Positions 227 through 14,413 of a stretch of DNA of 64,000 bases are shown piece by piece. Below the pieces are notes generated by a model. That model did no database searches and had not been told where the DNA came from. It saw nothing but the letters and a program-made list of their open reading frames with translations. A program made the translations under genes and the position numbers. The DNA comes from an uncultured archaeon (lineage in GTDB: Archaea; Asgardarchaeota; Lokiarchaeia; Sigyniarchaeales; SOKP01), in the NCBI GenBank assembly GCA_964486045.1, contig CAZALK010000002.1, positions 160,001 to 224,000 on the forward strand. Direction: 5' to 3'. Numbering within the stretch: position 1 is the first letter of the stretch; each line of letters opens with the position of its first letter.

Positions 227-1015
227 ATGTCAAAAGTAGGGTATGTTCAAACATCTCCAATATTTGGGGATAAAAAGAAAAATTTTGAACAGATTGAGAA
301 TTTGCTGGTAGGTGTAAAAGCGGATTTAATAGTTTTACCAGAGCTATTTGCTACTGGGTATGCTTTCATATCGAAAGATGAAGCAGTGTCTTTAGCTGAA
401 ACCCTAAATGGAAAAACATCTCAATTTCTTATAAGAATTTCCAAAATGACAGGGGCAGTTATAATTGGAGGATTTGTCGAACAGGCAGAAAATAGAATTT
501 ACAATTCTGCTATTATTGTCTCAAATAATCAAGTTATCGATTCATATCGTAAACTACATCTTTATTACAGGGAAAATTTGTGGTTTTCTCCAGGAGATAA
601 ACCTTTAAAAGTATATGATATTAATAATATGAAAATAGGGATTATGATCTGTTTTGATTGGATTTTTCCTGAAGTAACGCGAAGTCTTGCTCTTCTTGGT
701 GCAGATATTGTTGCTCATCCTGCCAATTTAGTACTTCCTTATTGCCAAAATGCTATGATCACGCGTTGCTTAGAAAATCGAGTTTATAGCGTAACCGCTA
801 ATAGAATTGGGCAAGAGAAAAGAGGTAAAGATAATTTTGTATTTACTGGTGCCAGTCAAATTACCTCCCCTGATGGAAAAGTCTTATTATCGGCACCATC
901 TAATAAGATACTTACGGGTTTTTCAGAAGTAGACATCGAACATTCGAGAAATAAAAAACTTAACGAATTTAACAATATTTTAGATGATAGAAGGGAGAAC
1001 TTCTATTTTAAATAG
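227..1015 (+). CDS. Carbon-nitrogen hydrolase (nitrilase superfamily amidohydrolase)
   Basis: Glu-Lys-Cys triad motifs LPELF, YRKLHL and ICFDW; ANRIG...FTGASQI. Confidence 0.9.
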   Translation: MSKVGYVQTSPIFGDKKKNFEQIENLLVGVKADLIVLPELFATGYAFISKDEAVSLAETLNGKTSQFLIRISKMTGAVIIGGFVEQAENRIYNSAIIVSNNQVIDSYRKLHLYYRENLWFSPGDKPLKVYDINNMKIGIMICFDWIFPEVTRSLALLGADIVAHPANLVLPYCQNAMITRCLENRVYSVTANRIGQEKRGKDNFVFTGASQITSPDGKVLLSAPSNKILTGFSEVDIEHSRNKKLNEFNNILDDRRENFYFK

Positions 1016-1049
1016 ATATTTATTTTGATCTTAATGACAATTATTTACA

Positions 1050-1436
1050 TTACTCGATTAAAGCAGAACTCTTTAGTCTATTGTGTAAATGTTTGATTAT
1101 AGCTTTGAATGCGTTTTCAACATTTTCGCCCGTTTTAGCAGAGGTCCGGTAATAACCCTCTAAATAGTTTTTTTTAACAAATTTTAAAATCTTTTCCTCA
1201 TCTAATTTGCTCTCATCAACCAAATCAACTTTATTACCAAATAGGGCAACTGGTATATCCCCACAAAATTTCCTTATTTCTTTTAATCATTGAGCTGCAT
1301 GTTTAAAACTTTTTTTACCAAAATTATTATCCTCGATAGAAAATACCACGATCGTTGCTACACTTGACCTATAAAAAGAGGGTCGTAAGAAATGAAATTC
1401 ATCTTGGCCCGCTATATCCCAGAAAAATAATGTATT
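1050..1436 (-). pseudogene. 5'-truncated Rab-like small GTPase remnant with an internal TGA
   Basis: Manual translation gives TLFFWDIAGQDEFHFLRPSFY (G3), LFGNKVDL (G4), RTSAKTGENVENAF (G5). No P-loop or start codon. In-frame TGA at 1289-1287 sits where Rab proteins have a Trp (SFKHAAQ*LKEI). Confidence 0.85.
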
Positions 1437-1448
1437 TCATTTCAGTTT

Positions 1449-1637
1449 TCTAAAATACCTGGAGTCTATTACAAACGATCTCAATATCCTAAACAAATGA
1501 AACTTTTTAAAGATGCAATTCAGATTTTAGAAAACCTTGAAATGGGAGATGAGCCTATAATACAGACGTTAAAAGAAAACATTGAATTTATAAGAGATGA
1601 ATTGGACAAAAACCAAACTAAATCAAATCAAAAATAA
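1449..1637 (+). pseudogene. C-terminal fragment of a TPR-repeat protein
   Basis: Frame reads SKIPGVYYKRSQYPKQMKLFKDAIQILENLEMGDEPIIQTLKENIEFIRDEL..., resembling a final TPR plus capping helix; no upstream start for the repeat. Confidence 0.5.
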
Positions 1638-1751
1638 ATACTTTTATTATCTTTCATGACTAATTAATTCAAAAGTGCTAAGTACAAGAAAAAAATTTAA
1701 AAAGCAAAAATCAATTAGTTCTATTTTAAATTACAAACAGTTTGCTAAAAA

Positions 1752-2759
1752 ATGAAAGCGGTTGTATTTGATGGGAAAAGTTTAATTATTAAAACTGTAG
1801 CTGATCCAAGAATAGGCGACATAAAGGTATTAGTTAGAGTCAAAAGTGTTGGGCTTTGTGGAACAGACATAGCAATAATCAAAGGTAATTTACTAACACC
1901 TATACCCCTAATTTTAGGACATGAGTTTGCTGGTGATGTAATTAAAGTGGGGGACAATGTCGATCCAAAATGGCTTAACAAGAGGGTAACCTCTGAAATA
2001 AATAGTAATATTGATTTTAGTTGTTATTATTGCAAAAAGGGAAAACCTACTCAATGCATATCTCGTAAAGCATTGGGAATTGATGTTGATGGGGCTTTAG
2101 CTGAATATATAGCGTTGGATCCATATTTACTTCATGAAATCCCTAACTCAATCTCATATGATGATGCCACCTTCATCGAGCCATTAGCAGCAGCATATCA
2201 AATATTCGAAACAATGCCATTAGAAACAACTGATAAAACAATAGCTATATTCGGGCTTGGAAAGTTAGGATTACTAATAACACAAGTAGCTTTACTAAAA
2301 GGTTTAACATTAATAGTTGTGGATGGTTCTTATAGAAAACTTAAATTGGCAAAAAAACTTGGTGCACATAGATTGATAAACAGATTTGATGGTACGAACA
2401 TTACTGATATGGTAAAGGCTCTAACACGTGGACTAGGCGCCGATATAGTTATAGATGCGACAGGTAATCCCTTAGCGATAAAAGATGTTTTAGCATCGTG
2501 CAGACCTCTAGGAAAAGTACATTTAAAAAGCACATACGGTCTTGATGCGCATGTTAATTTAACAGACGCAGTATTACGCGAATTAACTCTATATACTAGT
2601 AGATGTGGACCGTTTGATAAGGCTATCGAAGGATTGGAGTCGGGAAAGATTAATGTTGAGAAATTAATCTCAAATAAAATCCCACTAAAAGACATCGGAA
2701 AAGCTGTAGACTTTAATAATATAAACCAAGACCATATTAAAACAATTATTCACATATAA
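1752..2759 (+). CDS. Zinc-dependent alcohol dehydrogenase (MDR family)
   Basis: GLCGTD, ILGHEFAG, CYYC...C zinc site, IEPLAAA, GLGKLG nucleotide-binding motif. Confidence 0.92.
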   Translation: MKAVVFDGKSLIIKTVADPRIGDIKVLVRVKSVGLCGTDIAIIKGNLLTPIPLILGHEFAGDVIKVGDNVDPKWLNKRVTSEINSNIDFSCYYCKKGKPTQCISRKALGIDVDGALAEYIALDPYLLHEIPNSISYDDATFIEPLAAAYQIFETMPLETTDKTIAIFGLGKLGLLITQVALLKGLTLIVVDGSYRKLKLAKKLGAHRLINRFDGTNITDMVKALTRGLGADIVIDATGNPLAIKDVLASCRPLGKVHLKSTYGLDAHVNLTDAVLRELTLYTSRCGPFDKAIEGLESGKINVEKLISNKIPLKDIGKAVDFNNINQDHIKTIIHI

Positions 2760-2905: not shown

Positions 2906-4744
2906 ATGACTGATGATGATATTCAGGTGCCAAAATTAGATACAGGGAAAAATATAGCACATCAAGATATAAAATTTCCGTATTCTTGGTTCTTGTTGGT
3001 CTTCTTTACAATTTATCTTACCTCCCTTTTAGTTCCAACATTTTTATTCATGACATATATCTTTCTTTTTTTCTTGCCTAATTTTTTAGAAGTATCAAAT
3101 TTTTTAACACTTTTCACTGAGATTAAACCAATTCTCGCAATAATTTCTATGCCTTTAGTAATCATAGGGTGTTATTTAATCCGTTTATTTTTTGTTGGGC
3201 TGACAACACGGTTTTTTTGGAGATTGAGTGAAAGGAAGTCTCCCAGTAAAGATGGGATAATTCCAAGGAATTTTCCGAGTAGAACTCTTAATTATTATCA
3301 TATTCGAGGTTTTATGATAAAATATGGAAAGAACACATTTAATAAAGGAGCCTTCCCTTGGCTAAGCAATTGGTTTTACAATTTTGTAGGTTCAAGTGTG
3401 ATTGGAAAAGGATCAACCTTGGAGGAGAGTATATGCAATGAAAAATTTGCTATCGTTGGAAAAAATTGTTATTTTGGTGCAAGTTCGGCTTTAGCGACTC
3501 ATCTGGTTGATGGGACTTTTGGAAACATAAATTATTTTCATATCAAAGTTGGAGATAATGTAACTTTTGCTGGTACAAATTTAATTGCAGCAGGATCAGA
3601 GGTACATGATAATTCGTATTTGCTTCCTTTAGCTTCCGCAGGAAAACATAGCATATTAAAAGGGAATAATTATTATTGGGGAATCCCTTTAAGAAAAATA
3701 TTTCGGAAGAAAACTATGGGGTATTTGAAAATAACACCAAAGGAATTAGAAATAAATGAGAACATTGCTGGATATCTCGAGAAAGATGCAATGGAAAAAC
3801 TAAAAATTGAGAATATTTTAGGACCATTTAACGAATCAATTGAAAAGGAGCAAGAAAATATTGAAGAAAATGAAGAAAATGAGGAAAATATTGATATAAA
3901 TAGATTAAAAGAAGAAGATTTAGCAATAGACTTCACAACAAGTAGTGCAATTTCTAAGCTGAATATAAAGTTTCTAGTAGTGTACATCCCAATTTTTTGG
4001 TTATCTGGTATGTTGGATACAATTATATTTTACTCATTCATTTCTTTTGTAGGAAATGTATTTTTGAAGATATTCTTTCTCCCCACAATTATAATTATTA
4101 TGTGGTTTATATTTATATTAGGCTGCTTCTTTTTTAGCAAATTATTTCTAATTTTAATAAACTTAATTCATAGACCAAGAGAAGGGGTTTTTAAAGCTGA
4201 AATTGGGAATCCTGATTTTGAATTTTGGATGTTAAGAACTGAATTGAAAAAAGTTGTGCTATGGCTTATACGGAACTGGCCCATTCCCTGGATGGATATA
4301 TTAGCATTTAAGTGGTATGGTATAAAAATGACCTTAACAAGTTCATTATATGATTCTTGGTGTGATGGAGAATTTATAACATTTGGACGAAGAGTCTTAG
4401 TAGGGCAAGGTTCACATATCATGTCAAGCATGGTAGTCGGCCGCTACTTGATTATAAAGAAAGTAATTTGTGGTGATTATTCTCTTATTGGAGGACATTC
4501 GACAATAGCACCAGGTACAATAATTGGAGAGGATACTTTTGTCAGTGCTATTTCTACATCTATGTATTCTCAAATTTTAGAACCCGGATGGATATACTTT
4601 GGTATTCCATGCATTAAAATGAAGCCAAACAAATACTCTGAATCCGAAAGAGAGATCCTTATAAAAAGAGATGTAGATGAAGCAAAGAAATATACAATTC
4701 AGCACGAGGTTAATATTGATGATGATAAGAAAGACCTTGTGTAA
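2906..4744 (+). CDS. Membrane protein with two (TM + LbH hexapeptide acyltransferase-like) modules
   Basis: Two hydrophobic TM blocks, each followed by hexapeptide repeats (IGKGST, VGKNCYFG, VGDNVT; FGRRVLVGQG, CGDYSLIGG, IGEDTFV) ending in YWGIP / YFGIP. Confidence 0.75.
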   Translation: MTDDDIQVPKLDTGKNIAHQDIKFPYSWFLLVFFTIYLTSLLVPTFLFMTYIFLFFLPNFLEVSNFLTLFTEIKPILAIISMPLVIIGCYLIRLFFVGLTTRFFWRLSERKSPSKDGIIPRNFPSRTLNYYHIRGFMIKYGKNTFNKGAFPWLSNWFYNFVGSSVIGKGSTLEESICNEKFAIVGKNCYFGASSALATHLVDGTFGNINYFHIKVGDNVTFAGTNLIAAGSEVHDNSYLLPLASAGKHSILKGNNYYWGIPLRKIFRKKTMGYLKITPKELEINENIAGYLEKDAMEKLKIENILGPFNESIEKEQENIEENEENEENIDINRLKEEDLAIDFTTSSAISKLNIKFLVVYIPIFWLSGMLDTIIFYSFISFVGNVFLKIFFLPTIIIIMWFIFILGCFFFSKLFLILINLIHRPREGVFKAEIGNPDFEFWMLRTELKKVVLWLIRNWPIPWMDILAFKWYGIKMTLTSSLYDSWCDGEFITFGRRVLVGQGSHIMSSMVVGRYLIIKKVICGDYSLIGGHSTIAPGTIIGEDTFVSAISTSMYSQILEPGWIYFGIPCIKMKPNKYSESEREILIKRDVDEAKKYTIQHEVNIDDDKKDLV

Positions 4745-4759
4745 AACAATTTGATAACT

Positions 4760-5155
4760 TTAATTTATAATTAGTCCTAATTCTTGTTTTAAAAATCTCG
4801 ATAAATTTACGCATGTATTTTTTAATTCAGTTCTATTTTGGTAAAATAAATGAAGTCTAGGACAGTCATTATCGAAAATACAATTTTTTAAATGGAAGTC
4901 AAAGATTAATGGATAAAATCTACATCCTTGGGGACGATGTTCATAAATTTTACATTGATCTGAATGAGAATCTAAGAATATACAGTGATCTTTAATATTT
5001 TTTAACTGAGAAAACCCATCCTTATTATTAAACACGAAATCTTTTTTTTGTAGATTTTGATCCGTATTATTTATTATTTTAATAATATCATTCTTAGAAA
5101 GAATCATTTCCGTTCTTAAACAGCATTCTCCACAATTTTGGCATTTATTTTTCAT
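4760..5155 (-). CDS. YkgJ-family cysteine-cluster (Fe-S/Zn-binding) protein
   Basis: CQNCGECC...CIFLD...CKIYEHRPQGCRFYP pattern. Confidence 0.85.
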   Translation of the reverse strand: MKNKCQNCGECCLRTEMILSKNDIIKIINNTDQNLQKKDFVFNNKDGFSQLKNIKDHCIFLDSHSDQCKIYEHRPQGCRFYPLIFDFHLKNCIFDNDCPRLHLFYQNRTELKNTCVNLSRFLKQELGLIIN

Positions 5156-5291
5156 GGTTTTTTATTTTTATGTATTAATCATAAATTTAAAAGGAAAAAA
5201 AATATCTTATAAAATATAATAAGTATCAAATGCTTTTTAATAGAGCAAAATTTAATGAGTTTTAAGGTTTAACAATTTTCACTGCAAAAAA

Positions 5292-7166
5292 ATGGCCACA
5301 ATGAGCAAAGAAGTAGAGCTAAACGATCCTTTGGATAAGATTAGTACTGAAAATCACGTCATTAAGGAAGAAGTTAAACTCCAATTTTATTTATATATTC
5401 TTATCTTTGGCTTTATTTTTTACAGCTCATGGGTTTTCCCGGGTATTGTTTTTTTCTGGTACTTCCTTCAAGTTTTTCTTCCTTTTGTCTTGGAAACTTC
5501 TAATATCTTGTTAATTTTTACAGAAATTCGCTCTTTAATTGCATTCTTTTTGATGCCTTTGGTTCTTATAGGTTGTTACTTACTACATTTATTTTTATTA
5601 GGACTAACATCTCGAATTTGCTGGAAGATTTCTGAAAAAGTCTCACCATCAAAATCAGGGGTAATTCCACGAAATATTCGCAGTAAAGCGGTTAATTATT
5701 ATCATATAAGAAGCTTTTTAATCAAGTATGGGAAAAATTCCTTAACTAAGGGTATTTTTCCCTGGTTAGGTAATTGGTTTTTTAACACCGTAGGCTCTAA
5801 TACAATTGGGAAAGGTACAACGTTAGAAGAATCTGTAGGGATGGATAAATTTATCGATATTGGAGAAAATTGTTATATCGGAGTTAATTCTACTTTAGCC
5901 AGTCATCTGATTCAAGGAATTTTTGGAAATATCAGCTATTTTAAGATTAAAGTAGGTAATAATGTAACAGCTGCCGCAATGAGTCAAATAGGTCCGGGTT
6001 CTGAGATTCACGATAACTCCTTCTTACTACCATTAGCCTCAACAAGTAAACACAGCGTGTTAAAAGGAAATAAGTATTATTGGGGGATACCTTTAAGGAC
6101 AATATTTAGAAAGAAAACTATGGAATATTTATCTTTAACACCAAAAGATTTAGAGATAAATGAAAATGTAGAAGGTTATACTGATAAAAAATTATTGAAG
6201 AAATTAAAAATAAAAGAAATTCCAAAAACATCTATCAGCGATACGGTTAACGTAGAAAAAATAGAGAGTACATTGGATGAGATTAAAATTGACATTAATA
6301 CATTAAGCAAGGAGGATTTAGCAATTGATTTCACTACTAGTTCAGCTATAAGTAGGGTTAATTTAAAGTTTTTAGCAGTCTATATCCCAATTTTCTGGGT
6401 AGCAGGATTAATAATTTCGATAATGTGGTATTGGTATTTACTAGAGAGAAATTGGGTTGCTATACTAATTTTTCTTCCTTTTGTGATATTTGGGTCAATC
6501 TACTTTTTTATTTTAGCTAGTATTCTTTTCAGTAAATTACTTTTAATCTTGGTAAATTTAATACATAAACCCAAGGAGGGTATTTTTAAAGCTGAAATTG
6601 GGGATACTGACTTTGAATTTTGGATGTTAAGAACTGAATTGAAAAAGATCGGGTTGTGGTTCATGCGCAATTCACCACTTCCTTGGACAGATGTAGTAGC
6701 ATTAAAATTATTTGGTGTTGATATGGATGCTTCGAGCCATCTCAATGATGCATGGTGTGATGCTGAGTTTATTAAGTTTGGGAGGAAAAACTTAATCGGG
6801 CAGGGTGCTGTAATTATGTCTTCAATGATCGTTGGTCGATATTTGATTATAAAGAAGGTTGTATGTGACGATTATATCATGATTGGCGGTCATACAACTA
6901 TTGCCCCAGGAACAATTATGGGTAAAGAGTCAGTGATTGGTGCGCTTTCTTCTACAATGGTAAATCAAGTGTTAGAGCCAGATTGGGTATATTTTGGATT
7001 TCCTGCTATTAAATTAAAGGAAAACAAGTACGCAGAAGAGAGAAGAGATGTGATATTGAAGCGTGATGTGGATGAAGCCCAAAAATTTGAAATTGAACAT
7101 AAAATTAATATAGATGAAGATAAAAAAGGTTTAGTTAAAATGGAAAAAGAGGTAAAAAAAGCATGA
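5292..7166 (+). CDS. Membrane protein with two (TM + LbH) modules; paralog of 2906..4744
   Basis: Collinear with the 612-aa protein (NYYHIR, FPWL, EDLAIDFTTSSAIS, DFEFWMLRTELKK, KRDVDEA). Confidence 0.75.
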   Translation: MATMSKEVELNDPLDKISTENHVIKEEVKLQFYLYILIFGFIFYSSWVFPGIVFFWYFLQVFLPFVLETSNILLIFTEIRSLIAFFLMPLVLIGCYLLHLFLLGLTSRICWKISEKVSPSKSGVIPRNIRSKAVNYYHIRSFLIKYGKNSLTKGIFPWLGNWFFNTVGSNTIGKGTTLEESVGMDKFIDIGENCYIGVNSTLASHLIQGIFGNISYFKIKVGNNVTAAAMSQIGPGSEIHDNSFLLPLASTSKHSVLKGNKYYWGIPLRTIFRKKTMEYLSLTPKDLEINENVEGYTDKKLLKKLKIKEIPKTSISDTVNVEKIESTLDEIKIDINTLSKEDLAIDFTTSSAISRVNLKFLAVYIPIFWVAGLIISIMWYWYLLERNWVAILIFLPFVIFGSIYFFILASILFSKLLLILVNLIHKPKEGIFKAEIGDTDFEFWMLRTELKKIGLWFMRNSPLPWTDVVALKLFGVDMDASSHLNDAWCDAEFIKFGRKNLIGQGAVIMSSMIVGRYLIIKKVVCDDYIMIGGHTTIAPGTIMGKESVIGALSSTMVNQVLEPDWVYFGFPAIKLKENKYAEERRDVILKRDVDEAQKFEIEHKINIDEDKKGLVKMEKEVKKA

Positions 7167-8086
7167 GTGTTCCGAATACGATGCGTGTTGGACCGTTTAC
7201 ACCGACTATTTTGGCACGAAAAAGGTATCTAATATTTTATTTTTTCCTGATATGGGTAAGCATAATTCCGCTCCTATTGGAATTTTGGTTTTATTGGCGT
7301 TTATTATGGACACCAATTTCTGCTGTAGGTTTAAGTCCCGTTCATTTTTACACCTATCTACCACTTTTATTATTTTTGATGTATGTAACGATTGTCTTTT
7401 CTGCTATATTTTTTGCAAAGGTTTTGTTAGTTATAACCAACGCTATTCACAAACCAAGAGAAGGCACCTTTTTAAGACATCCCTCTGATAGGGATTATCG
7501 TTATTGGAGTCTTCGGAATACAATTAAACGATGGCCAATATGGTTAGCTCATAGATTTCCATTTCCAGGGATTTTAGATAATATATGCTTTAAGGTATTC
7601 GGAGTTAAAACAAAAATCTCAAATTCCTTATTCGAAGGATGGGTTGACACAGAATTTATAGAGTTTGGAAGTGACGTTGTAGTTGGCCAAGGCTCAATTG
7701 TTCAAGGCGCAGTAATTATTGGGAATCTTCTAATAATCAGAAAGACGGTTATAAAAGATAATGTAAGGATCGGATCTCATGCGATAGTTATGCCAGGAAC
7801 TCATATTGGAAACAATTGTATCCTTGCAGCTAATAGTGTAACTACTGTAGGACAAGTTTTAGAAAAGGGTTGGATCTATGTTGGAATTCCTGCTAAAAAA
7901 TTCAAATTAAACTATTTCTTTGAAGACGGACTTGAAGATAAATTAGGTCATGTTGAAGATATAGAAGCTCTGCGCGAAAAGTATGAAGAAATGTATACTA
8001 AACGATATGATGAGCTAACCTATAAAGAACGAAAGGAATTAAAAAGGGAAAAGAAAGAGAAAGAAAAAAAGAGATGGGTACCTTAG
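7163..8086 (+). CDS. Membrane protein with one (TM + LbH) module; translationally coupled to the upstream gene
   Basis: ATGA overlap at 7163-7166; HKPREG...YW.LR, FGSDVVVGQG, IKDNVRIGSH, IGNNCILAA and YVGIPA match module 2 of the neighbours. Confidence 0.75.
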   Translation: MSVPNTMRVGPFTPTILARKRYLIFYFFLIWVSIIPLLLEFWFYWRLLWTPISAVGLSPVHFYTYLPLLLFLMYVTIVFSAIFFAKVLLVITNAIHKPREGTFLRHPSDRDYRYWSLRNTIKRWPIWLAHRFPFPGILDNICFKVFGVKTKISNSLFEGWVDTEFIEFGSDVVVGQGSIVQGAVIIGNLLIIRKTVIKDNVRIGSHAIVMPGTHIGNNCILAANSVTTVGQVLEKGWIYVGIPAKKFKLNYFFEDGLEDKLGHVEDIEALREKYEEMYTKRYDELTYKERKELKREKKEKEKKRWVP

Positions 8087-10466: not shown

Positions 10467-12299
10467 TTAAAATTTGTATTTTTGGTTCTGTATTTTCTCA
10501 TAGATCTCTTTATTAAAGGGTATGTATACTGATTCGTTTGGAAGCATAATATAGAGAGGATCTTCAATAACTTGAGGATCAATGCCTTCTTCTTTGAGTT
10601 TTAGTTTTTTAAATTTAAATGTATGAGTTGTTGAGAGATCCGATTTAAATCTGAGAAAAATGGGTATAGCATATGGGGCAAGATTATCATTAAATATGTT
10701 TGCTAACCTCTTGAAATCAAACTTATCAAAATTTGATTTGGGAACAATTGCAGCCATTCCTGCTCGCCCGTCTGTAAGTGGTATTTTAATTCCATAAGCG
10801 GATGATATTGAGACTTGATCAAATACATTGAGTACTTGTTCTACTTCAGTAGTGGAGACATTATGTCCCTTCCATCGGAAGGTATCACCGAGACGATCTA
10901 CAAATTGGGCATGACCACATCCTTGATCTCGCATTAAATCGCCTGAATTGAACCATTCATCCCCTTCTTTAAAAACATTGTGAAAGAGCTTCGCTTTGGT
11001 CGCATTTTCATCGGTATATCCCATAAATTTATTTGTACCTGCACTTTCAAATATAGCTAGACCAACCTCACCTTTTTTTACTTTTCTCATAACTCCTCTC
11101 GTATTTCTAATGGGTTTATCTTCCTCATGATCATATCGTACAATGGCATGAGTACCACCAAAAGAATATCCACACGTACAATCAAAATTTAATACATTTG
11201 CAAATGCTCCATTTCCTTCCGATGCTCCATAAAACTCTCCGATAACAGGAATCTTAAATCGTTTTTTAAAATCTACCCATATTTCTGGACGGAGACCATT
11301 TCCTATCACTACTCTTACAGGATTATCTGAATCATTTGGTTTAGGGGGTTGATTCATTAAATAACGACATATTTCTCCAACATAATTGAAACCAGTAGCG
11401 TTGAATTTTCGAATGTCATCCCAAAAGTGACTAGCACTAAATTTACGGGCTATTGCTAAAGCACCCCCATTAACAAATATGGAAGGCCACCCCGTCATTA
11501 GAGCTGTGCCATGAAAGAAAGGGAGTGGAATATACATTGTATCATCGGGAGAAAATTCTGCAATAATTCTTCCAAACCCAAGTCCCGCACCAATAACTCT
11601 TGCTTGTGATAAGAGTGCTGCTTTAGGTAATCCAGTTGTACCAGAAGTAAATATATAAGCAATAACATCTAGAGTCTTGGTATTTTTCGTAGTGGAAGGA
11701 TTATCTGTAGGAAAATTTTTAACAGTTTGCGGGAGGTTAATAAATCCTTCAGGAAGGTCCATCTCACCATCATCGTGTATGAAGCAGAGTTGTTCAACAT
11801 CTGAAAGATTAATATTAGCTTTAACTTCGCTAAAGGCACTGAAACATTCTTCTCCGATAACAATTATCTTACCCGGTGTTAGGTCTAAACTATATATTAG
11901 AGATTTTTTACGCTGATCAGTATTAATCAATGAAGAAATTGCTCCGATTTTAGCATTAGCAGTATAAACCAGTAAAATTTCTATTCGGTTTTTTATTAAA
12001 ACCTTAACTACATCACCTTTTTTCAAGCCTAATGAGATAAAATAATTTGCATACTGGTTGACCTTTTCATTAAATTCTTGATAAGTAAGAACAGTATCTT
12101 CAAATTTAATAGCTGGATTATTAGAATATTTTTGAGAATTTTCTTCAAGAATAGATCCCCATGTAATTTTATTTTCTACAGAAAGATTTGTAAGTTCTTG
12201 GACGAATGTACCATGATTTTTAGCGAATTCTCCAAATCTTTTATTAAATTCTGCTTTGTCGATAAGGTTTGATTCACTTGATTTTGATATTTCCATCAT
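10467..12299 (-). CDS. Long-chain acyl-CoA synthetase, FATP/SLC27 type
   Basis: YIFTSGTTGLPKA, YVGEICRYL, GNGLRP, FYGASEG, DRLGDTFRWKGHNVST, GRAGMA. Confidence 0.92.
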   Translation of the reverse strand: MMEISKSSESNLIDKAEFNKRFGEFAKNHGTFVQELTNLSVENKITWGSILEENSQKYSNNPAIKFEDTVLTYQEFNEKVNQYANYFISLGLKKGDVVKVLIKNRIEILLVYTANAKIGAISSLINTDQRKKSLIYSLDLTPGKIIVIGEECFSAFSEVKANINLSDVEQLCFIHDDGEMDLPEGFINLPQTVKNFPTDNPSTTKNTKTLDVIAYIFTSGTTGLPKAALLSQARVIGAGLGFGRIIAEFSPDDTMYIPLPFFHGTALMTGWPSIFVNGGALAIARKFSASHFWDDIRKFNATGFNYVGEICRYLMNQPPKPNDSDNPVRVVIGNGLRPEIWVDFKKRFKIPVIGEFYGASEGNGAFANVLNFDCTCGYSFGGTHAIVRYDHEEDKPIRNTRGVMRKVKKGEVGLAIFESAGTNKFMGYTDENATKAKLFHNVFKEGDEWFNSGDLMRDQGCGHAQFVDRLGDTFRWKGHNVSTTEVEQVLNVFDQVSISSAYGIKIPLTDGRAGMAAIVPKSNFDKFDFKRLANIFNDNLAPYAIPIFLRFKSDLSTTHTFKFKKLKLKEEGIDPQVIEDPLYIMLPNESVYIPFNKEIYEKIQNQKYKF

Positions 12300-13007: not shown

Positions 13008-13499
13008 ATGAAGTTCGAAGAAAATTTTATATTCCCTGTATATATCTATCAAGAGGTTATAGAAACAATTAAGATATTGTGTAGTAAATCAATTTCAGAG
13101 ATTTTTGGGTATCTTATAGGTTCTATTTTAATATGGAATAATGTTATTTATATAATTATTGAAGAATCAATTTTTCTTGAAGATATTATATATAGTGACA
13201 AATTTTTAACATCTCAAATAGTAGGAACTGCGGGAGCATATCAAAAAGAATTTGACCGGCTAAAAAAAATGAGAAGAAAAAAGAATTTAAGAATCGTTGG
13301 ATGGTGGCATTCTCACCCCGATTTTGGATGTTTCTTATCATCCACCGATTTACTTACTCAAAAATATTTTTTTCATAAATCGTTTCAAGTAGCGATGGTT
13401 GTTGATCCAAGTAGAAATGAATTTGAATTTTTTACTCTTGATCTTCATACAAAAATAGGTTACAAATCAGTCAGTTATGCAATTATAGCTAAAAATTGA
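13008..13499 (+). CDS. JAB/MPN+ (JAMM) metalloprotease, Rpn11-like deubiquitinase/maturase
   Basis: EIFGYLIG...VGWWHSHPDFGCFLSSTD (E...HxH-x7-S-x2-D), then MVVDP. Confidence 0.95.
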   Translation: MKFEENFIFPVYIYQEVIETIKILCSKSISEIFGYLIGSILIWNNVIYIIIEESIFLEDIIYSDKFLTSQIVGTAGAYQKEFDRLKKMRRKKNLRIVGWWHSHPDFGCFLSSTDLLTQKYFFHKSFQVAMVVDPSRNEFEFFTLDLHTKIGYKSVSYAIIAKN

Positions 13500-14413
13500 T
13501 CTTAAAACCTAAAGAAGAAATGTCTAAAAAAGATACAGATTTTGAAGAGTTCTCCTTATATGGAATTGAATCAGTGGATTCAGATATGTTTGATCGTCAA
13601 AAAAGAATCAAAGGATGGGATCAGGCAAGAATTAACAATTCTACAGTAATGGTCATCGGCGCGGGGGCCATTGGAAACGAGTTAGTAAAAAATTTAGTTC
13701 TAATCGGAATAGGAAAAATAATTTTAATTGATTATGATTTCATAAATACTTCAAATTTAAATAGATGCGTTCTATTTAATATAAAGGATACTAAACAAGA
13801 AGTGTATAAAGTAGATGCCATAAAGGAAGCATGTACAATACTAAATCCGAATACCGAAATAATTTCAATCAAAAAAAAACTAGAAGATATTGAAAAAACA
13901 CTTTACACTAGATCTGACGTAATATGTTCATGTGTTGATAATATTGAATCAAGATTGGAAGCGAATAATTATGCTTATTATTATAACATCCCTTTTGTTG
14001 ACGCAGGGATTGATGAATTCTTTGGTAGCCTCCAATCGGTATATTCTGAGGTAAAGGAAGCTGCTTGTTTCCAATGTAATATTACCGATTTAGACCTAGA
14101 TATAATGTGGAAAAAATATTCGTGCACGGGTCAAGAGATTGATAATGAAAATGGTGAAACTTTTGGAATAATTGCTTCGATCATCTCAACTACTTCAATT
14201 ATAGGAGGATTACAGTCACACCAAGTTCTAAAATTCCTATTAGGACTAGAATATTTTAAGGAACATAAAAAATGGAACCCTTATATTGGCCAACCATTAA
14301 TTGGGAAACAATTAAATTATAATGGAATATTAAACAGTTTCAAAATCGTTGAAAAGGTAAAAAATCCTGAATGTTGGACATGTTCCTTTAAAAAAGCCCA
14401 ACCTACTAAATAA
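13496..14413 (+). CDS. Ubiquitin-activating E1-like enzyme (ThiF/UBA family)
   Basis: FDRQ, GAGAIG, SNLNR, CVDN, CFQC and CWTC zinc pairs, candidate catalytic Cys in YSCT; overlaps the JAB stop (TTGA). Confidence 0.93.
   Translation: MILKPKEEMSKKDTDFEEFSLYGIESVDSDMFDRQKRIKGWDQARINNSTVMVIGAGAIGNELVKNLVLIGIGKIILIDYDFINTSNLNRCVLFNIKDTKQEVYKVDAIKEACTILNPNTEIISIKKKLEDIEKTLYTRSDVICSCVDNIESRLEANNYAYYYNIPFVDAGIDEFFGSLQSVYSEVKEAACFQCNITDLDLDIMWKKYSCTGQEIDNENGETFGIIASIISTTSIIGGLQSHQVLKFLLGLEYFKEHKKWNPYIGQPLIGKQLNYNGILNSFKIVEKVKNPECWTCSFKKAQPTK

What the first reader, a model, noticed from the sequence alone, without database searches (positions are those of the whole stretch)
2906..8086. Split 2+1 membrane LbH system resembling the epsilon-poly-lysine synthetase (Pls) terminal region, with no A/T domains
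Seen: three genes built from one module (TM helices, then PxxG...Y/FW.LR or an equivalent, then hexapeptide LbH ending GxP). Two genes carry two modules and one carries a single module; the 624-aa and 307-aa genes are coupled by ATGA. Only module 1 of each large protein has a His (ATHLVDG, ASHLIQG); the other modules read MSSM or QGAV. Known: LbH domains work as trimers, and Pls-type NRPS terminal regions carry three tandem TM+LbH-like modules. Inference: large plus small subunit rebuilds a three-module pseudo-trimer with one active site, and the 612-aa paralog is an interchangeable large subunit. This would be a stand-alone archaeal membrane acyltransferase or polyamide polymerase with unknown donor and product. 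It is the best candidate here for an undescribed system.
Basis: partly seen in the sequence, partly recalled or inferred. Interest (0 to 1): 0.8.

Follow-up and report, generated by a model that had tools for sequence, protein, structure and literature searches.

The report
Split three-module membrane acyltransferase, Asgard
Three genes of a Loki-type Asgard archaeon encode five "membrane hairpin plus beta-helix" units that are true relatives of the polymer-making end of bacterial polylysine synthetase. They most likely assemble as three-part membrane acyl-transfer enzymes with one active site, have no amino-acid-activating parts, and their substrate is unknown and untested.

Summary
ORFs of 612, 624 and 307 aa (2906-4744, 5292-7166, 7163-8086, all +) are built from one module: two TM helices, a P-x-(x)-x-G linker motif, then a left-handed beta-helix (LbH). 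The 624 and 307 genes overlap by ATGA. Only the first (A) module of each large protein has the LbH histidine.

- A profile of the histidine-less (B) modules hits genuine Pls/PosA synthetases at E 1e-23 to 1e-28, across TM, linker and LbH. Module-level homology is real.
- The proteins fail membership of that family: 27-47 bits against a cut-off of 423, with no A or T domain.
- Relatives show a fixed three-module unit A, B, B' in four gene layouts: A|B|B', AB+B' (this window), B'A+B, and a single chain B'-A-B. AlphaFold2 folds that single chain compactly (pTM 0.83).
- Like Pls, where only C3 carries it, only one module of three keeps the histidine.

Nothing supports polyamide synthesis. The likeliest reading is a heterotrimeric, single-site membrane acyltransferase using acyl-CoA, with two alternative AB subunits sharing one B'.

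This scan has flagged the same family in at least ten other Asgard genomes. I found no paper describing it.

The parts
2906..4744 (+). AB large subunit, paralog 1 (612 aa, P0001). A module aa 1-293 (nt 2906-3784) with His199 (nt 3500-3502). Disordered acidic/basic linker. B module aa 335-612 (nt 3908-4741), no His.
   Evidence: Orthologous clade across the genus.
4760..5155 (-). CxxCxxCC (PF03692, YkgJ-like Zn/Fe-chelating) protein of 131 aa, on the opposite strand between the two AB genes. It holds this position in 9 of 9 mapped genomes of the genus. Its role is unknown.
5292..7166 (+). AB large subunit, paralog 2 (624 aa, P0002). A module aa 1-299 (nt 5292-6188) with His205 (nt 5904-5906). 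Linker aa 300-339. B module aa 340-624 (nt 6309-7163).
   Evidence: H205 invariant in 70 AB homologues; AF2 pLDDT 76, pTM 0.72; Foldseek best hits are maltose/galactoside O-acetyltransferases
7163..8086 (+). B' small subunit (307 aa, P0003). One TM-hairpin plus LbH module without the His, then a Lys/Glu-rich C-terminal tail (about aa 250-307). Translationally coupled to the 624-aa gene by the ATGA overlap at 7163-7166.
   Evidence: (distinct B' clade)
1752..2759 (+). Zn-dependent alcohol/polyol dehydrogenase (MDR family, 335 aa), 146 nt upstream of the first AB gene on the same strand. It holds this position in 8 of 9 mapped genomes of the genus. It may be a partner, but this is unproven.
227..1015 (+). 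Nitrilase-superfamily C-N hydrolase (262 aa). In relatives it directly follows the B' gene of a split A|B|B' triple, and this genome has lost that triple. It is conserved context, and any link is unproven.
10467..12299 (-). Long-chain acyl-CoA synthetase (610 aa; NF006134 712 bits, over the cut-off of 625). It is context only: adjacency to B' is kept in just the two closest relatives.

Best explanation
The genes encode subunits of a membrane-anchored, pseudo-threefold LbH acyltransferase.

Each module contributes a two-helix membrane hairpin, a short strand, two helices and a cytoplasmic left-handed beta-helix. One complex contains one A module (the only one with the general-base histidine, P0002 H205 or P0001 H199), one B module and one B' module. 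That gives six TM helices, three packed beta-helices and a single active site at an A interface.

In this window A and B are fused (612 and 624 aa). B' (307 aa) is made separately, translationally coupled to the 624-aa gene. The two AB paralogs are alternative catalytic subunits that share the single B'.

No carrier or adenylation partner exists for it. The donor is therefore most likely an acyl-CoA, which has the same pantetheine-thioester chemistry as the Pls carrier domain. The acceptor is most likely a hydroxyl or amine of a molecule at or crossing the membrane.

Shown: module architecture, homology to Pls modules, the fixed A/B/B' set and its fusions, the single histidine, and the compact fold of the natural single chain. 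Inferred: hetero-assembly and 1:1:1 stoichiometry, sharing of B', the acyl-CoA donor and the membrane-proximal acceptor.
For: 1. Homology
- The B-module profile hits true A-T-Pls-type synthetases at E 1e-23 to 1e-28, covering profile positions about 22-240, which is TM plus linker plus LbH.
- Those hits (P0250, P0260, P0224) score TIGR02353 471-606 bits and carry an amino-acid adenylation domain.
- The best solved generic LbH proteins score 51 bits or less and align over the LbH only.
- hhalign of module profiles gives 97-99% probability against Pls C1. B against C1 aligns 184 columns.
- The post-TM2 (K/P)-x-G-x-(Y/F) motif is shared with Pls-type C1 and C2 modules.

2. A three-module unit
- In the genus, clades A, B and B' each split into a 'split-triple' and a 'fused-cluster' subclade. 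The whole unit was therefore duplicated before A and B fused.
- In 8 of 8 further loci a B'-A fusion is immediately followed by a single B gene.
- A 797-aa Promethearchaeota protein is B'-A-B in one chain, a cyclic permutation of A-B-B'.
- AF2 of that chain gives pLDDT 82.1 and pTM 0.83. Each module has the element order described for the PosA model (PMC10522769).

3. A single active module
- His is present in 63-71 of 75 A modules, and replaced by S or A in the B and B' modules of multi-module systems.
- It is kept in single-module relatives and in Pls-type C3 (LQTHLFEDR) but not in C1 or C2.

4. Acyltransferase fold: Foldseek best matches are maltose/galactoside O-acetyltransferases over about 180 columns. 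A modules hit the Mac-family model NF058585 at 5.7e-16.

5. No A/T partner.

6. Shared B': this genome has two intact AB genes and only one B'.
Against: - No multimer prediction or model coordinates were available. LbH-LbH packing and AB+B' assembly are inferred from pTM and gene architecture, and were not seen directly.
- Other families of the same order have only an A+B gene pair, and this genome has a solo A. Three distinct modules is therefore not obligatory, and stoichiometry could differ.
- No conserved neighbour identifies a donor or an acceptor. The acyl-CoA synthetase adjacency holds in only 3 close genomes.
- The dehydrogenase, hydrolase and CxxCxxCC neighbours are conserved only within the genus.
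- CoA-binding residues were not examined.
- B and B' keep invariant polar residues (E100, R118, D162 in P0003 numbering), so they may not be mere scaffolds.
Confidence: 0.6

Rival explanations
1. It is a carrier-less Pls-like polymerase. The three-module complex would processively join amino-acid or similar monomers supplied in trans and export the polymer through the six-helix bundle.
For: Module-level homology to the Pls/PosA polymerisation domain, and the same one-histidine-in-three layout. Stand-alone three-module relatives lacking A/T exist in bacteria, including one that passes the TIGR02353 cut-off (P0248, 637 bits). The genome has a PPTase and carrier domains.
Against: None of the three proteins has an A or T domain, and the genome has no NRPS-type A domain over the cut-off. 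The only carrier domains lie inside an unlinked giant PKS-like ORF on another contig. No homologue longer than 1092 aa was found. All Asgard modules best match Pls C1 with no one-to-one correspondence, so the triple layout probably arose independently. A modules are as close to Mac-type acetyl-CoA O-acetyltransferases as to Pls.
Confidence: 0.1
2. The proteins are independent enzymes. Each gene product forms its own homo-oligomer (AB as a trimer of two-headed chains, B' as a homotrimer), and the clustering reflects tandem duplication only.
For: Single-module relatives that keep the histidine exist and presumably act as homotrimers. This genome has a solo A gene on contig 6. The 612-aa gene has no B' of its own.
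Against: B and B' lack the histidine across the family yet are strongly conserved. The A, B and B' clades co-duplicate. Fusions occur in every cyclic order: A-B, B'-A and B'-A-B. The ATGA coupling argues for joint expression. The single chain has a compact fold.
Confidence: 0.1
3. It is a non-catalytic membrane module, for example a gamma-carbonic-anhydrase-like scaffold or a regulator of a transporter, which only retains the LbH fold.
For: The B-module profile's best solved matches include gamma-carbonic-anhydrase-like proteins. Heterotrimeric CA/CAL LbH modules attached to the membrane arm of mitochondrial complex I are a precedent for mixed active and inactive LbH trimers.
Against: The A-module histidine is conserved at the acyltransferase general-base position. 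No conserved histidine triad appears among the conserved columns. Gamma-CA family models score far below their cut-offs, 15-29 bits against 250.
Confidence: 0.05

Closest known systems
C-terminal membrane 'polymerisation' domain (TM1-6 with C1-C2-C3; NCBIfam TIGR02353) of Pls/PosA-family NRPS-like synthetases (epsilon-poly-L-lysine synthetase, delta-poly-L-ornithine synthetase PosA; PMC10522769)
   Same: The repeating module is the same: TM hairpin, strand, two helices, LbH. There are three modules per functional unit. The post-TM2 (K/P)xGx(Y/F) motif is shared. Only one of the three modules keeps the LbH histidine (Pls C3, Asgard A). The LbH is on the cytoplasmic side. Profile E-values are 1e-23 to 1e-28 and hhalign gives 97-99%.
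   Different: There are no adenylation or carrier domains. The modules are spread over two or three genes, with the fusion point varying between lineages. Scores are 27-47 bits against the 423-bit cut-off. All Asgard modules are closest to C1, so there is no C1/C2/C3 orthology and the triplication was probably independent. The donor and product are unknown.
Maltose/galactoside O-acetyltransferase (Mac/LacA) branch of hexapeptide acyltransferases, including heptaprenylglyceryl-phosphate O-acetyltransferase YvoF (NF058585)
   Same: These are the best structural matches to the soluble part: about 180 columns, TM-score about 0.6 on the target. A modules hit NF058585 at 5.7e-16. The histidine in the LbH is shared.
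   Different: Those enzymes are soluble homotrimers with three active sites. Here there is a membrane hairpin on every module and a differentiated heteromer with one histidine.
Gamma-carbonic-anhydrase/CAL heterotrimer on the membrane arm of plant and protist mitochondrial complex I (e.g. PDB 7ar9, 7tgh)
   Same: It is a precedent for a membrane-attached LbH trimer built from different paralogous subunits, of which not all are catalytic. These chains appear among the sequence hits of the B profile.
   Different: It uses zinc-enzyme chemistry with a histidine triad that was not seen here, and it is not an acyltransferase. This is an analogy only.

Membership tests
Pls/PosA family NRPS terminal domain (TIGR02353) | Score at or above the curated cut-off (423.1 bits) over the 695-position model | tested here: not met
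   27.5, 47.3 and 34.4 bits for P0001, P0002 and P0003. True members score 471-637 bits.
Pls/PosA family NRPS terminal domain (TIGR02353) | N-terminal adenylation and thiolation (carrier) domains in the same protein | tested here: not met
   Only Hexapep is found in the three proteins. No homologue over 1092 aa was found. The genome has no NRPS A domain over the cut-off, and its carrier domains occur only in an unlinked giant ORF.
Pls/PosA family NRPS terminal domain (TIGR02353) | Three tandem TM-pair plus LbH modules forming one pseudo-threefold domain | tested here: inconclusive
   Here the modules are 2+1 over two genes. A, B and B' co-occur and co-duplicate. The natural single chain B'-A-B folds with pTM 0.83. 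The AB+B' complex itself could not be predicted.
Pls/PosA family NRPS terminal domain (TIGR02353) | Module homology extending beyond the LbH into the TM2 and linker region | tested here: met
Hexapeptide-repeat (LbH) acyltransferase superfamily (PF00132) | Hexapeptide repeats and a left-handed beta-helix fold | tested here: met
   Pfam Hexapep at 5e-12 to 7e-9. AF2 models and Foldseek hits to Mac/LacA enzymes.
Hexapeptide-repeat (LbH) acyltransferase superfamily (PF00132) | General-base histidine in the LbH | tested here: met
   Met in the A modules only (P0001 H199, P0002 H205). It is invariant in 70 AB homologues and present in 63-71 of 75 A modules. It is absent from B and B'.
Hexapeptide-repeat (LbH) acyltransferase superfamily (PF00132) | Trimeric assembly with active sites at subunit interfaces | not testable with these tools
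   No multimer prediction and no model coordinates were available. The only support is indirect.
Hexapeptide-repeat (LbH) acyltransferase superfamily (PF00132) | Acyl-CoA or acyl-carrier thioester as donor | not tested
   This needs biochemistry. The donor is inferred from fold relatives only.

The most novel reading that the evidence does not exclude
The complex is a carrier-independent, processive membrane polymerase-exporter, or alternatively a lipid acyltransferase that ester-links acyl-CoA-derived chains onto archaeal membrane lipids. It would be peculiar to Loki-type Asgard archaea and expanded to several paralogous complexes per genome. That would make Pls-type chemistry an ancient stand-alone membrane machine that NRPS systems later captured.
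Probability: 0.08. Interest if true: 0.9.

Novelty: new variant of a known kind. Interest (0 to 1): 0.6.

Why it matters
The polymerising end of polylysine-type synthetases has no solved structure that I could find in the PDB copy, and its mechanism is poorly understood.

This work shows that its repeat unit exists as free-standing membrane proteins:
- single-module forms, for example in a Nanoarchaeota genome;
- two- and three-module forms in Loki-type Asgard archaea;
- three-module forms without A/T in an alphaproteobacterial genome and in a chytrid fungus.

In Asgard archaea the three positions have become fixed, different subunits with one active site. This gives a genetically dissectable, naturally split model for how such pseudo-trimeric LbH membrane enzymes work. 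It also suggests where the Pls domain came from.

For Asgard biology, this is a multi-copy, lineage-expanded membrane enzyme family with no known product. It is therefore a candidate for an undescribed envelope or lipid modification.

Tried and rejected
- Search for homologues longer than 1092 aa (fusions with A/T domains): none found.
- Sequence and fold searches of the PDB for a solved Pls-type domain: none. Only generic LbH enzymes came up.
The gene context of the bacterial, fungal and single-chain relatives could not be read.
- Long-chain acyl-CoA synthetase at 10467-12299 as a donor supplier: adjacency holds only in the two closest relatives and is absent in six other genomes of the genus. 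Rejected as a conserved partner.
- The conserved 546-aa unknown protein (f3) of the relatives' synteny block: no Pfam or PDB match, and absent from this genome. Irrelevant here.
- Neighbours of the B'A+B loci and of the A+B pairs in other families: hydrogenase-like subunit, ERCC4, SDR, alpha/beta hydrolase, M50 peptidase, SAM synthetase, TBP, Elf1, asparaginase. No consistent functional theme.
- One-to-one orthology of A, B and B' with Pls C1, C2 and C3: not supported, since all three best match C1.
- Gamma-carbonic-anhydrase reading: no conserved histidine triad, and scores are far below the cut-offs.
- An artificial read-through fusion of the 624- and 307-aa genes for folding was considered and not attempted. 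It would not be a natural sequence, and the tools discourage it.
- The ESM Atlas gave only 'acetyltransferase/hypothetical' clusters of Promethearchaeota.
- Literature searches found no description of stand-alone forms.
Full report
**What is there**

The window holds three co-oriented ORFs of 612, 624 and 307 aa at 2906-4744, 5292-7166 and 7163-8086 (translations). A 131-aa CxxCxxCC protein (PF03692) lies on the opposite strand between the first two. The 624- and 307-aa genes overlap as ATGA, with GAGGT 10 nt upstream.

Pfam sees only hexapeptide repeats. Module HMMs built from the window's own proteins divide the large proteins into two parts:
- an N-terminal A module, aa 1-293 in P0001 and aa 1-299 in P0002;
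- a C-terminal B module, aa 335-612 and aa 340-624, joined to A by a disordered linker.

The 307-aa protein is one B-type module, called B' here. K/R counts of P0003 fit an N-in, C-in hairpin with the LbH on the cytoplasmic side (positive-inside rule).

**Organism and distribution**

Source names of near-identical proteins are Promethearchaeota (Asgard) MAGs. Annotations read only 'hypothetical', 'acyltransferase' or 'isoleucine-patch superfamily'.

- All 41 genomes searched in the same order have homologues, and most genomes of the genus have 7-17 matches each.
- Across 151 genomes of the phylum, strong matches are confined to the window's own family (25 of 25 searched) and one neighbouring family of the same order (2 of 2).
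- Four or five further families give weak matches.

This genome (5.18 Mb, 99% complete) has, besides the window genes, two other loci:
- a very divergent adjacent pair, A (282 aa) plus B (245 aa), on contig 7;
- a solo A (266 aa) on contig 6.

**Relation to Pls**

NCBIfam TIGR02353 (Pls/PosA terminal domain) is the top or near-top hit for the B and B' modules. It scores only 27-47 bits against a cut-off of 423.

I built a profile of 18 B and B' modules and searched it against 1.84 billion representative proteins. It found genuine A-T-Pls-type synthetases at E 1e-23 to 1e-28.
- The matched stretches cover profile positions about 22-240, which is the TM helices, the linker and the LbH.
- Three of these hits score TIGR02353 471-606 bits and carry an amino-acid adenylation domain.
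- Against the PDB, the best generic LbH enzymes reach only 51 bits and align over the LbH alone.

Profile-profile comparison of Asgard A, B and B' alignments with Pls C1, C2 and C3 alignments gave 96-99% probability in eight of the nine pairings (A against C2 gave 62%). The B against C1 alignment spans 184 columns. The motif after TM2, (K/P)-x-G-x-(Y/F), is shared with Pls-type C1 and C2 modules.

So the module is homologous to the Pls module. All three Asgard modules are closest to C1, so there is no one-to-one orthology, and the triple layouts probably arose independently. As proteins they fail the family's defining features, namely the cut-off score and the A and T domains.

**Evidence for a three-module unit**

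I mapped modules over loci fetched from 9 genomes of the genus. Two cluster types recur on the same contig:
- a split triple, A (about 305 aa) | B (about 300 aa) | B' (about 283 aa);
- one to three tandem AB fusions (585-628 aa) with one B' (about 315 aa).

A module tree (quick IQ-TREE, SH-aLRT support only) resolves clades A, B and B'. Each splits into a 'split-triple' and a 'fused-cluster' subclade. The whole A|B|B' unit was therefore duplicated before A and B fused.

AB(624-type) is adjacent to B' in 9 of 9 genomes. In five the genes overlap by 4 nt. In two the order is B' then AB. In one, the adjacent B' is truncated.

In 8 of 8 further loci of the family a different fusion, B'-A (390-555 aa), is immediately followed by a single B gene.

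A 797-aa protein found in two Promethearchaeota MAGs, one on a 149-kb contig, is B'-A-B in one chain. That is a cyclic permutation of A-B-B'. I folded it with AlphaFold2, using a staggered alignment of B'-A and A-B fusions.
- The model has pLDDT 82.1 and pTM 0.83.
- Each module shows two long helices, a strand, two helices and an LbH.
- These are the elements described for the AlphaFold/RoseTTAFold model of the PosA terminal domain, which packs three LbH with approximate threefold symmetry (PMC10522769).

P0002 alone gives pLDDT 76 and pTM 0.72.

Other families of the order carry only an A+B gene pair. Their B groups weakly with B' in the tree. The three-kind state is therefore derived within the window's family.

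**One active module**

The LbH histidine (P0002 H205, P0001 H199) is invariant in 70 AB homologues. It is present in 63-71 of 75 A modules, depending on the alignment used.

At the same column, the B and B' modules of multi-module systems read S or A. Single-module relatives keep the histidine, for example a 236-aa Nanoarchaeota protein.

In the Pls-type proteins aligned, only C3 has it (LQTHLFEDR), and C1 and C2 do not. Two other stand-alone three-module proteins (P0180, P0204) also keep the histidine in just one module.

**Chemistry**

- Foldseek places the soluble part nearest to the maltose/galactoside O-acetyltransferases.
- A modules hit the Mac-family model NF058585 at 5.7e-16.
- The genome has no NRPS-type A domain over the cut-off, but has about two dozen AMP-binding (acyl-CoA-synthetase-like) genes (28 matches to the A-domain model, some on the same gene).
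- Its only carrier domains and its PPTase domain lie in a giant PKS-like ORF on contig 21.

An acyl-CoA donor is therefore the economical inference. It is not shown.

**Gene context**

- The long-chain acyl-CoA synthetase at 10467-12299 is adjacent to B' only in the two closest relatives.
- Neighbours conserved within the genus are a Zn-dehydrogenase upstream of AB (8 of 9 genomes), the CxxCxxCC gene (9 of 9) and a nitrilase-superfamily hydrolase.
- None of these identifies a substrate.

**The 612-aa paralog**

The 612-type and 624-type AB form separate clades that span the genus. This genome has lost the split triple and the roughly 8-kb block that follows it in relatives. It keeps both AB genes intact with a single B'. 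Sharing of B' is the simplest reading, and it is an inference.

**Verdict**

The finding is real. It is a stand-alone, split, heteromeric variant of the Pls-type membrane LbH module, most likely a single-site membrane acyltransferase of unknown substrate. Polyamide synthesis is not supported.

I found no paper describing such stand-alone forms. This scan has flagged and followed up the same family in at least ten other Asgard genomes, with similar conclusions. I consulted those notes only after reaching my own reading.

Noticed in passing
G000 contig 21, about 64.9-68.9 kb (outside the window): A giant open frame (3501 aa or more) carries three tandem PP-binding (ACP) domains and a 4'-phosphopantetheinyl transferase domain. 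It is a PKS- or PUFA-synthase-like megaenzyme in an Asgard genome.
   Followed up: no
L016:7386-9812 (G000 contig 7) and L017:5210-7336 (G000 contig 6): There is a very divergent A (282 aa) plus B (245 aa) pair, abutting stop to start and followed by a metallophosphoesterase. There is also a solo histidine-bearing A module (266 aa) directly downstream of an MFS transporter. The 245-aa B type recurs in most genomes of the family.
   Followed up: partly
Window 1015-1752, compared with L030-L039: Relatives carry a block between the nitrilase-like gene and the Zn-dehydrogenase: UvdE, a PNPOx-like protein, DUF1761, heliorhodopsin, an unknown 546-aa protein and DUF6512. They also carry the split A|B|B' triple upstream. 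This genome lacks all of it, apparently through deletion.
   Followed up: partly
L033:6777-7355 and L035:2797-4133 (genome G006, complete chromosome): The B' gene next to the AB gene is truncated to 192 aa. A full 319-aa copy, preceded by a 126-aa B fragment, lies about 1 Mb away. This looks like a rearrangement or pseudogenisation of the shared subunit.
   Followed up: no
Proteins P0273, P0248, P0204, P0239: Stand-alone relatives occur outside Asgard:
- an 809-aa three-module protein of the chytrid fungus Obelidium mucronatum, with His in all three modules;
- a 756-aa alphaproteobacterial protein that passes the TIGR02353 cut-off but has no A/T domains;
- a 960-aa SDR plus three-module fusion;
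- a 236-aa single-module Nanoarchaeota protein.
   Followed up: partly
L040, L041, L043, L049 (B genes of the neighbouring family): The B subunits carry Lys/Glu-rich, coiled-coil-like C-terminal tails of 120-170 aa. P0003 has a shorter tail of the same kind (aa 250-307).
   Followed up: no
Window 13008-14413: Adjacent JAB/MPN protease and ThiF-type E1 genes form a ubiquitin-like conjugation cluster. Other notes of the scan already treat it.
   Followed up: no
G000, genome-wide: 28 matches to the amino-acid adenylation model, all below the cut-off. This is an unusually large complement of AMP-binding, acyl-CoA-synthetase-like genes.
   Followed up: no
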